From Chrysomallon squamiferum (taxonomy: Eukaryota > Animalia > Mollusca), in NCBI GenBank assembly GCA_012295275.1, contig CM022670.1, positions 40,796,001 to 40,860,000 of the forward strand: DNA of 64,000 nt, in the 5' to 3' direction. The notes beneath the pieces are model-generated. The model made no database searches. It was not told the origin of the DNA and saw only the letters and a program-made list of their open reading frames with translations. Each line of letters begins with the position of its first letter. The first letter of the stretch is position 1. The position numbers were made by a program, and so were the translations under genes. Shown here in pieces: positions 7,401-8,472 of the stretch.

Positions 7401-8472
7401 TTTTATTTTACATAAAAAAAAAAAAAATAATAATAATAATAAAAATATTTTTATTTTAAATTGTTGGTTTATATTAAATATAGTTATATTTTAAAGTATT
7501 TTTAGAAATGTTTTCTCTTATAAATGTTACATGCGTTTGCTCTGGGTTTTTGCACCAAATGTGTCCTTAATTACGATTTTCTGTTTTTTGTTGTTTAAAG
7601 GAGGAATGAATGAAGCCGGTATCAGAAAACTTGGGGCGGTCTTGTGTTGGGGAAAACCGGAAAAGCTATCCTAAATTGAATGAAAAGAAGAAAACCGGAA
7701 ACGATTTTGACATCACGTGACACTTTTCGGACCACTCAGCATCTAGCTATCATTCACTTCATAAAAAAAAAAAAAAAAACCATTGTCGTCATCAATGTCA
7801 TTTTTGTCTAGATGTCGAGTGCTTCGAACCGTTGACACGTGATGTCTGGAAACCCAATGTCACAGCTTACTTTATACTATACTGTGCATGTTTTACTGCA
7901 TTATGTCGTATTATAGGTTTCATTTACTTGTCTATTTGGCTTATTGTCCCTTATCTTTAAGAGCAAAGACGTTTTGATAAATACTTTTGATATGCTGGAA
8001 ATAAAAAAAGAGATGTTTTCTTGTGTGTGTAAAACTGCGTTTTGTCTCGCCTGCAGGTGCTGATAACGAAGAGGGCATTGCGAGGGTTGGCAATCTTCTG
8101 TGCATGGGCGTGGCTGTTTGACGTGCGCTAGCTGCGACTTTGGCGCTTCAGGAAGCAAAACGCTGCATCCAGTCAACGTTACCAGACCACCATCTTGATT
8201 TTTTTGCATGACCGATAATGCTGACGTTTCACTTCATAAAGAGTCAGACACTGCGCAAATTCAGCCACCGTGTTTAACAGCATGGAATTTATTTAGTTAT
8301 TTGTTATTATCGTAGAGGTATTTTTCTGAAGCTCTGCATGCATTTTGTTTTTTTTTTTTTTTTATTTCTTTTCTGTTATACTCATACTATAGGTGACGTC
8401 GGAGCCGAATCCGGGTTTTACAAAATTGGCCCCGTGTTGTGCCAGGGCATAGAAACTGAAAGGCAGCTGTAA
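1433..8472 (+). CDS. 3' part of a thrombospondin type-1 repeat protein with a C-terminal Caspr-type fibrinogen-like (COLFI-related) domain; 5' exons lie outside the window
   Basis: Phase-1 GT-AG exons 1433-1597, 2188-2352, 4159-4323 (165 nt each) and 5431-5607 each encode one TSP1 repeat (e.g. VDGVYSDWSAWSTCTVSCGGGTQWHSRTC...CNTQHCP). They are followed by 5777-5926 (TCTEW...IDP...VYCDMESEGGIGVTVIG) and 6352-6765 (HDQ...SCKQFISWKC...YFGGATPGSGKCQCGMTNSC...CNCDTNDNVWREDSGYLTYKDDLPVTEFIAGDTG), which resemble the Caspr/neurexin-IV fibrinogen-like module. The chain stays in frame into any of three last exons. Confidence 0.9.
3131..3250. repeat. (TC)n microsatellite
   Basis: Direct reading. Confidence 0.95.
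7601..7674 (+). CDS. Alternative last exon A of the TSP1/Caspr-like gene (GGMNEAGIRKLGAVLCWGKPEKLS*)
   Basis: Acceptor ttttttgttgtttaaAG, phase 1 matching the donor at 6765, E-x-G-x3-(L/V/I)G-x2-LC-x-G motif, TAA stop. AATAAA at 8000-8005. Confidence 0.75.
8057..8121 (+). CDS. Alternative last exon B (GADNEEGIARVGNLLCMGVAV*)
   Basis: Acceptor tttgtctcgcctgcAG, phase 1, same motif as exons A and C, TGA stop. Confidence 0.72.
8393..8472 (+). CDS. Alternative last exon C (GDVGAESGFYKIGPVLCQGIETERQL*)
   Basis: Long polypyrimidine tract plus ctatAG, phase 1, IGPVLC motif, TAA stop. Followed by an AT-rich UTR with AATAAA at 9155-9160. Confidence 0.8.

What the first reader, a model, noticed from the sequence alone, without database searches (positions are those of the whole stretch)
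7601..8472. Three tandem homologous last exons offer swappable C-terminal strands for a Caspr/COLFI-like domain
Seen: three exons, absent from the ORF track, each with a good acceptor in the phase required by the donor at 6765 and each with its own stop. They read GGMNEAGIRKLGAVLCWG..., GADNEEGIARVGNLLCMG... and GDVGAESGFYKIGPVLCQG.... They share E-x-G-x3-[LVI]G-x2-LC-x-G but little other nucleotide similarity, so they look like old duplicates kept under protein-level selection. Established: this motif ends the Caspr fibrinogen-like domain and resembles the IGPVC end of fibrillar collagen C-propeptides, where the Cys closes an intradomain disulfide. Inference: alternative last-exon choice gives three isoforms that differ in a structural strand of a putative trimerisation/recognition domain, which could set assembly or partner specificity.
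Basis: partly seen in the sequence, partly recalled or inferred. Interest (0 to 1): 0.82.

Follow-up and report, generated by a model that had tools for sequence, protein, structure and literature searches.

The report
Mollusc matrix protein with three endings
A mollusc gene for a long, likely secreted repeat protein carries three diverged copies of its tiny last exon, and abalone and oyster database models of the same gene also end in three different ways at the same point, so these animals likely splice one of three versions of the final strand onto a tip domain predicted to fold like the collagen C-propeptide, which would likely tune what that tip binds.

Summary
Three AG-flanked, phase-1 exons (7601, 8057, 8393), each with its own stop, are the three best of 58,551 windows scored with a tail profile (15-20 bits; next 3.7; 0 of 3,412 shuffles reach 15). 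The gene is the molluscan PAN-EGF-SRCR-TSP1n protein that RefSeq calls 'SCO-spondin-like'. RefSeq isoforms X1-X3 of two abalones are identical over 1,507 residues and differ only in three tails that match window exons C, B and A one to one. Crassostrea virginica also has three tails at this junction; six further molluscs show two. AlphaFold models put the tail in the last beta-strand of a collagen C-propeptide-like fold (Z 14.5-14.7). No RNA shows the junctions in this species. The trimer idea is untested and weakened: the collagen stalk and inter-chain cysteines are missing, and one oyster tail lacks the terminal cysteine. It is a new, old, three-way case of a known kind (tandem duplicated last exons), unusual in swapping a domain strand rather than a loose tail. 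Ten literature searches found no description. The scan earlier noted the same kind of event in a different (octopus p24) gene, not this gene.

The parts
1433..1597 (+). Constitutive-looking TSP1 exon (165 nt, phase 1-1); earlier exons of the gene lie before the window
   Evidence: splice sites and open frame; tblastn with orthologues
2188..2352 (+). TSP1 exon (165 nt, phase 1-1)
4159..4323 (+). TSP1 exon (165 nt, phase 1-1)
   Evidence: Pfam TSP_1 E 3.6e-14
5431..5607 (+). Last TSP1 exon (177 nt, phase 1-1)
   Evidence: Pfam TSP_1 E 2.8e-12
5777..5926 (+). First exon of the C-terminal Caspr-type/COLFI-fold domain (the 'base' part, two Cys)
   Evidence: weak Pfam Fibrinogen_C, E 0.0011, below cut-off
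6352..6765 (+). Main exon of the domain (138 aa, seven Cys); its phase-1 donor is shared by the three last exons
   Evidence: 93% identical to Gigantopelta aegis XP_041359749.1, 72% to abalone
7601..7674 (+). Alternative last exon A (24 aa, own TAA)
   Evidence: best match to isoform X3 tails of both abalones and to the Patella tail
8000..8005 (+). AATAAA followed by a GU-rich tract that runs into the exon B acceptor; likely poly(A) signal of exon A
   Evidence: sequence; function inferred
8057..8121 (+). Alternative last exon B (21 aa, own TGA); only a CATAAA variant (8235) before the exon C acceptor
   Evidence: 14 of 21 identical to G. aegis X2 tail, 13 of 21 to H. rufescens X2 tail
8393..8472 (+). 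Alternative last exon C (26 aa, own TAA); commonest ending among RefSeq models of relatives
   Evidence: 15 of 24 aligned residues identical to G. aegis X3 tail
8473..9222 (+). Likely 3' UTR of exon C with ATTAAA at 8686, 8905, 9102 and AATAAA at 9155, 9217
   Evidence: sequence; the end actually used is unknown

Best explanation
The gene encodes a long, likely secreted TSP1-repeat rod whose tip is predicted to be a collagen C-propeptide-like domain, and it likely makes three isoforms by splicing one shared donor to one of three tandem, anciently duplicated last exons, which would likely change what the tip binds while keeping its fold. Shown: three open, homologous exons with own stops; three corresponding protein models in two abalones and three tails in an oyster. 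Predicted: each tail supplies the short loop, the last beta-strand and the free C-terminus of the domain. Inferred: choice is made by competition between 3' splice sites and poly(A) sites (exon A's AATAAA sits 51 nt before exon B's acceptor, so cleaving there removes B and C), with distal exon C as default; fixed residues (E, G, G, two hydrophobics, C, G) keep the core, while the variable residues and the tail alter a contact surface for self or partner binding in the matrix.
For: Bodies identical, tails different: H. rufescens X1/X2/X3 and H. asinina X1/X2/X3 (1,507 aa each), C. virginica X1/X2/X3 (1,919 aa), G. aegis X1/X2, M. gigas X1/X2, M. angulata X1/X2, two Littorina models. One-to-one match of window A/B/C to abalone X3/X2/X1: summed score 187 against 142 for the next pairing (H. 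rufescens), 188 against 145 (H. asinina); each window exon is closer to its abalone counterpart (59-68) than to its own siblings (33-48). Class-specific residues are kept across those lineages, which points to selection on three distinct peptides. Models of G. aegis C and B forms: mean pLDDT 94.8 and 95.4, tail is strand 193-204 or 192-203; best fold match procollagen I/III C-propeptide, Z 14.5-14.7, rmsd 4.3-4.5, 180 aligned, model end on collagen residue 245/246. Among 28 molluscan tails E(-7), G(-5), G(0) are invariant and -6, -3, +3, +5 are most variable. In collagen the C-terminal residue lies near the inter-chain interface (PMC5353611, passages). C is the ending of 17 of 19, 8 of 10 and 7 of 8 RefSeq models with the domain in H. 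rufescens, H. asinina and G. aegis.
Against: No RNA junction was seen for this species. The relatives' isoforms are automated models; their read support and the genomic order of their exons were not checked. G. aegis, the closest relative, shows no A-type model among 8. The oyster tails cannot be paired with A/B/C (113 against 112 for the best two pairings), so the bivalve set may be independent. Counts of RefSeq models are not expression levels.
Confidence: 0.58

Rival explanations
1. The three tails are a collagen-like chain-selection code: the tip domain trimerises, and the swapped strand and C-terminus decide which isoforms co-assemble into homo- or heterotrimers of the TSP1 rod.
For: Same predicted fold as the procollagen C-propeptide over the whole domain. 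In collagen I the last residue of the alpha2 chain is implicated in heterotrimer formation and loss of its last 10 residues blocks incorporation (PMC5353611, passages). Three variants fit a 1:1:1 or 2:1 scheme. One oyster tail lacks the terminal Cys and would leave a free Cys for an inter-chain bond.
Against: The match starts at collagen residue 40, so the coiled-coil stalk (residues 8-29) is absent and a TSP1 repeat lies directly upstream. No cysteine lies between model Cys2 and Cys35, so the inter-chain C2/C3 pair (PMC6181919, passages) is absent. The regions likely equivalent to the chain recognition sequence lie in the shared exon (inferred from the fold match). The same domain occurs as 2-7 internal repeats in other proteins and inside Caspr/neurexin IV.
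Confidence: 0.17
2. The point of the three exons is three 3' UTRs (stability, localisation, timing); the peptides are interchangeable and only have to complete the fold.
For: Each exon brings its own stop and UTR; exon A has a clean AATAAA with GU-rich tract. B and C forms are predicted to fold alike. Alternative poly(A) alone is a common regulatory device (own knowledge).
Against: A new UTR does not need a duplicated coding strand. Class-specific residues are kept between the window's species and abalones (A: GG[ML]NE..CWG; B: GA[DE].E...VG[NR]; C: one residue longer, GD.G.E...GPV.C), more than the shared fold requires.
Confidence: 0.2
3. In this species only exon C (or B and C) is used; the others are intact relics or the RefSeq isoforms are annotation noise.
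For: No RNA support for the window's species. No A model in G. aegis. Window exon A has drifted from the family consensus in mid-strand (9-10 of 21 identical to abalone A).
Against: All three frames and acceptors are intact and all seven shared residues kept. Two abalone annotations, an oyster annotation and (in a shifted frame) Pomacea each give three tails at the same junction.
Confidence: 0.05

Closest known systems
Tandem exon duplication-derived substitutions with homologous C-termini (PMC8373072, PMC9741552; passages read)
   Same: Tandem homologous 3' coding exons used as alternatives through poly(A)/splice choice; old and conserved; 77 of 236 human events are C-terminal; three-way cases exist (tropomyosins).
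   Different: Those C-terminal swaps are described as mostly exposed helices, membrane spans, coiled coils or disordered tails; here each exon is about 20 codons and is predicted to supply the last beta-strand of a globular domain. The gene family is a protostome matrix protein that the two papers' passages do not mention.
Fibulin-1 C-terminal duplication (human FBLN1, C. elegans fbl-1; mentioned in PMC8373072, passage)
   Same: Secreted repeat-rod matrix protein with an ancient duplicated alternative C-terminus.
   Different: Fibulin-1 swaps a whole C-terminal domain (own knowledge); here only the last strand and tail are swapped, three ways.
Fibrillar procollagen C-propeptide (COLFI; PDB 4AE2, 5K31)
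   Same: Predicted fold over the full domain (Z 14.5-14.7); Cys1-Cys4 and Cys6-Cys7 equivalents likely kept; last strand ends in G-x-x-x-C.
   Different: No triple helix, no stalk, no inter-chain C2/C3, no C5; extra four-Cys loop; below Pfam COLFI detection; collagens vary the C-terminus by paralogous genes, this gene likely by splicing.
Caspr / neurexin IV 'fibrinogen-like' domain
   Same: Clear sequence homology (43% identity, E 3.4e-22 to Antedon neurexin-4-like) and the same ten-Cys pattern family.
   Different: In Caspr it is internal, between EGF and laminin-G domains of a membrane protein; here it is the C-terminal tip of a TSP1 rod with no membrane span in any tail.
SCO-spondin (the RefSeq name of the orthologues)
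   Same: Many TSP1 repeats.
   Different: No vWD, C8, TIL, LDLa or cystine-knot hits in the orthologues scanned; the name likely reflects the repeats only.

Membership tests
Tandem duplicated last-exon substitution | Two or more adjacent homologous 3' coding exons | tested here: met
   Three exons within 872 nt, seven invariant residues, top three profile hits
Tandem duplicated last-exon substitution | Each exon joins the same upstream exon in frame and has its own stop | tested here: met
Tandem duplicated last-exon substitution | Alternative use in transcripts of this species | tested here: inconclusive
   No RNA holder listed; no junction seen
Tandem duplicated last-exon substitution | Alternative isoforms conserved in other species | tested here: met
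   Identical bodies with three tails in H. rufescens, H. asinina, C. virginica; protein models only
Fibrillar collagen C-propeptide (COLFI, PF01410) | Base-and-petal fold | tested here: met
   Predicted models: Foldseek E 7e-08; Z 14.5-14.7, 180 aligned, rmsd 4.3-4.5
Fibrillar collagen C-propeptide (COLFI, PF01410) | Pfam COLFI score above cut-off | tested here: not met
   No COLFI hit for the window exons or four orthologue-family proteins; two distant homologues score 22 bits against a cut-off of 26.2
Fibrillar collagen C-propeptide (COLFI, PF01410) | Upstream triple helix and coiled-coil stalk | tested here: not met
   TSP1 repeat directly upstream; match begins at collagen residue 40
Fibrillar collagen C-propeptide (COLFI, PF01410) | Inter-chain cysteines C2/C3 and the C5 partner of the terminal Cys | tested here: not met
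   No Cys between model positions 2 and 35 or 35 and 90
Fibrillar collagen C-propeptide (COLFI, PF01410) | Trimer formation | not tested
   The complex-prediction queue was full; no job ran
Caspr/neurexin-IV-type fibrinogen-like domain | Sequence homology over the domain | tested here: met
   43% identity, E 3.4e-22; 37% over 158 aa, E 5e-25 pairwise with the G. aegis paralogue
Caspr/neurexin IV proteins | Discoidin, laminin-G x4, EGF, membrane span | tested here: not met
   Orthologues show PAN, EGF, SRCR, TSP1 only
SCO-spondin | vWD, C8, TIL, LDLa and cystine-knot domains (as listed in PMC7333891, passages) | tested here: not met
   None found in the abalone, oyster and Lingula proteins scanned
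Dscam-type internal mutually exclusive clusters | Docking/selector RNA pairings | tested here: inconclusive
   The 25 longest of 116 inverted repeats in 6700-9500 are A/T-rich or homopolymer pairs; no relatives' DNA for covariation

The most novel reading that the evidence does not exclude
Molluscs encode a collagen-style chain-selection code in one gene: splicing of three 20-codon last exons, present since before gastropods and bivalves split, swaps the terminal strand and disulfide of a non-collagen COLFI-fold tip and so decides which TSP1 rods of which length co-assemble or cross-link in the matrix, with the Cys-less oyster tail acting as a covalent linker.
Probability: 0.15. Interest if true: 0.8.

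Novelty: new member of a known kind. Interest (0 to 1): 0.52.

Why it matters
Duplicated alternative exons kept for hundreds of millions of years are among the few splice events with a strong record of function (PMC8373072, passages). This case gives three natural variants of one strand in the Caspr/COLFI-type domain, for which the sequence search of solved structures found no close relative, so it is a ready-made experiment on what that strand does and whether the non-collagen form of the fold assembles. It also points to an undescribed protostome matrix protein family, misnamed SCO-spondin in databases, that varies both rod length and tip by splicing.

Tried and rejected
Own genome: none is held, so upstream exons and paralogues could not be read. 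RNA: no RNA holder listed; laying X1-X4 gave intron-spanning contigs from X1 and no splice joint among the exons; lack of cover over the last exons says nothing. Homotrimer prediction: the queue was full and no job ran, so oligomer state is open. Sequence search of PDB: best E 0.36 (lamprey fibrinogen gamma, residues 2-52), nothing for the tail. Pfam: no family for the three tails or the main exon at cut-off. Tree of tails: first attempt failed for too few columns; the second (28 tails, 22 columns, 54 parameters; seven unnamed or non-molluscan tails and Lingula left out) groups B forms (95) and C forms (91) of the window, G. aegis and abalones but is under-determined and only a hint. Pairing oyster tails with A/B/C failed. 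RNA docking/selector pairings: nothing beyond A/T runs. A recalled name for this domain in corals ('NEC', 'DICAN') was searched and not found in the library, so it is not used. Limpet adhesive SCO-spondin-like proteins (PMC7333891, passages) have other architectures and are not this gene; PMC7663992 (passages) did not mention it. Earlier-findings look-ups by sequence and place returned nothing. Supplements of papers were not opened; accession lists there could mention this gene.

Full report
Observation. The window starts inside a + strand gene. Four TSP1 exons (1433-1597, 2188-2352, 4159-4323, 5431-5607) and two exons of a cysteine-rich domain (5777-5926, 6352-6765) are all phase 1-1 and form one open frame (Pfam TSP_1 for the two TSP1 exons scanned). 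Read into the intron, exon 6352-6765 loses similarity after ...AGDT. Three AG-flanked exons continue the frame: A 7601-7674, B 8057-8121, C 8393-8472, each with its own stop. They share G, E, G, G, L, C, G and little DNA similarity (A-C 44 of 80 columns; the other pairs did not align end to end). A profile from 133 tail segments of homologues lacking the TSP1 tryptophan motif ranks them first to third among 58,551 windows (19.6, 15.6, 15.3 bits; fourth 3.7); 0 of 3,412 shuffles of the region reach 15 bits.

What the gene is. The main exon is 93% identical to Gigantopelta aegis 'SCO-spondin-like' and 70-72% to abalone proteins, so the window is likely from a gastropod near G. aegis. Full-length orthologues have PAN, EGF, TSP1, SRCR, 10-28 TSP1 repeats and this terminal domain; proteins of similar build occur in Lingula, Owenia, Dimorphilus and Priapulus. 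They lack the vWD, C8, TIL and LDLa domains of true SCO-spondin (list from PMC7333891, passages). The terminal domain is homologous to the internal 'fibrinogen-like' domain of neurexin IV/Caspr (43%, E 3.4e-22).

Conservation of the three endings. This is the main result. RefSeq isoforms X1, X2, X3 of Haliotis rufescens (XP_046330790.2, XP_046330791.2, XP_048256066.1) are identical for 1,507 residues and then end in three different tails; so are X1-X3 of H. asinina (XP_067679120.1-122.1). The break is at the window's junction. Window A, B, C pair with abalone X3, X2, X1: summed score 187 against 142 for the next-best pairing, and 188 against 145; each window exon is closer to its abalone partner than to its siblings. 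The triplication therefore predates the split of these lineages (Palaeozoic, from my own knowledge). G. aegis has B and C models but no A model among 8, and a nearby paralogue with a B tail. Crassostrea virginica X1-X3 are identical for 1,919 residues and have three tails; Magallana gigas, M. angulata, Littorina, Biomphalaria and Dreissena show two each (for Biomphalaria and Dreissena the two models come from different annotations and are identical over the last 186 shared residues only). Patella (2 models), a third abalone (3), Physella, Elysia, Batillaria, Mya, Nucella, Candidula and each non-molluscan protein showed one tail in what was retrieved, which may reflect thin annotation. The three odd tails of Pomacea models fit the motif in a shifted frame (43.3, 35.1, 45.0 bits; 0 of 200 shuffles each; the other three frame tests gave 87, 81 and 2 of 200; the second tail needs the other shift, so a second indel), likely an assembly error before three real exons. 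Oyster tails cannot be paired with A/B/C (113 against 112), so common origin with bivalves is open. All of this rests on protein models; their RNA support and exon order were not checked, and no RNA was found for the window's species.

Structure. AlphaFold2 models of the G. aegis C and B domains (87-row alignments) have mean pLDDT 94.8 and 95.4; the tail gives a short loop and the final 12-residue strand at pLDDT about 98. The A form was not folded. Both match procollagen I/III C-propeptides far above other folds (Foldseek E 7e-08; Z 14.5-14.7, 180 aligned, rmsd 4.3-4.5; next Z 6-7), from collagen residue 40 to the C-terminus. The protein atlas also gave COLFI-related clusters (score 0.94-0.95, family on 14-44% of members). 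Among 28 molluscan tails E(-7), G(-5) and G(0) are invariant, -1 and +2 hydrophobic, and -6, -3, +3, +5 most variable. Of 312 unique domains covering the key columns (376 found), 254 have all ten cysteines; positions 98 and 156 are lost together in 4, which fits collagen C6-C7; by elimination Cys90 likely pairs with the terminal Cys203; only 3 lack the terminal Cys, all the oyster third tail.

How it likely works. One donor, three acceptors, three stops. An AATAAA at 8000 with a GU-rich tract lies 51 nt before exon B's acceptor, so cleavage there would fix exon A; B has only a CATAAA variant before C's acceptor; C has several signals downstream. C ends 17 of 19, 8 of 10 and 7 of 8 models in H. 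rufescens, H. asinina and G. aegis, which fits a distal default but is not an expression measure. The swap likely keeps the fold and changes the loop, the variable strand positions and the free C-terminus. But the stalk and the inter-chain C2/C3 pair (PMC6181919, passages) are missing, and the domain also sits inside Caspr and in arrays of 2-7, so trimer chain selection is the less likely form (0.17) of a more general tuning of binding (0.58). A UTR-only role (0.20) does not explain class-specific residues kept between lineages. The trimer prediction could not be run because the queue was full.

Comparison and novelty. The event belongs to tandem duplicated exon substitutions with homologous C-termini: 77 of 236 human events are C-terminal and three-way cases exist (PMC8373072, PMC9741552; passages). 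It differs in swapping about 20 codons that complete a globular domain, where such C-terminal swaps are described as mostly exposed. The isoforms are in RefSeq as automated models under a misleading name; ten full-text searches showed no paper describing the gene's three endings, within an open-access library and without supplements. Verdict: real, conserved, a new member of a known kind with an open and testable function; interest 0.52.

Noticed in passing
orthologues (P0331, P0338, P0343; C. virginica X3, M. gigas X2): One oyster tail has Ala in place of the otherwise invariant terminal Cys, which would leave one unpaired Cys in that isoform.
   Followed up: partly
orthologues in H. rufescens (P0004-P0009, P0131-P0148): RefSeq lists isoforms up to X21, 1,103-1,535 aa, differing in the number of TSP1 repeats; the phase 1-1 repeat exons allow skipping, so rod length likely varies as well as the tip.
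   Followed up: no
G. aegis P0129 (XP_041357519.1): A shorter paralogue on the same scaffold size carries a B-type tail and differs at 34 of the last 186 domain residues.
   Followed up: partly
Pomacea P0012, P0158, P0159: Three nonsense-looking C-termini fit the tail motif in a shifted frame; likely an assembly indel hides three real last exons.
   Followed up: partly
window 57,990-59,006 (+): Actin coding sequence with an apparent frame change near 58,140; assembly error or pseudogene.
   Followed up: no
window 13,779-13,943 (+): Short ORF with a signal-peptide-like start; resembles a NIDO-domain N-terminus from recall, no Pfam hit.
   Followed up: partly
window 13,264-13,480 and 25,230-25,446; 16,280-16,462 and 28,525-28,683: Two pairs of near-identical dispersed repeats about 12 kb apart.
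   Followed up: no
homologues P0180-P0325: The Caspr-type domain is a mobile module without its own Pfam family: 1,124 representative proteins at E up to 0.001, some with up to seven tandem copies, many cnidarian-type ones behind Ig or EGF domains.
   Followed up: partly
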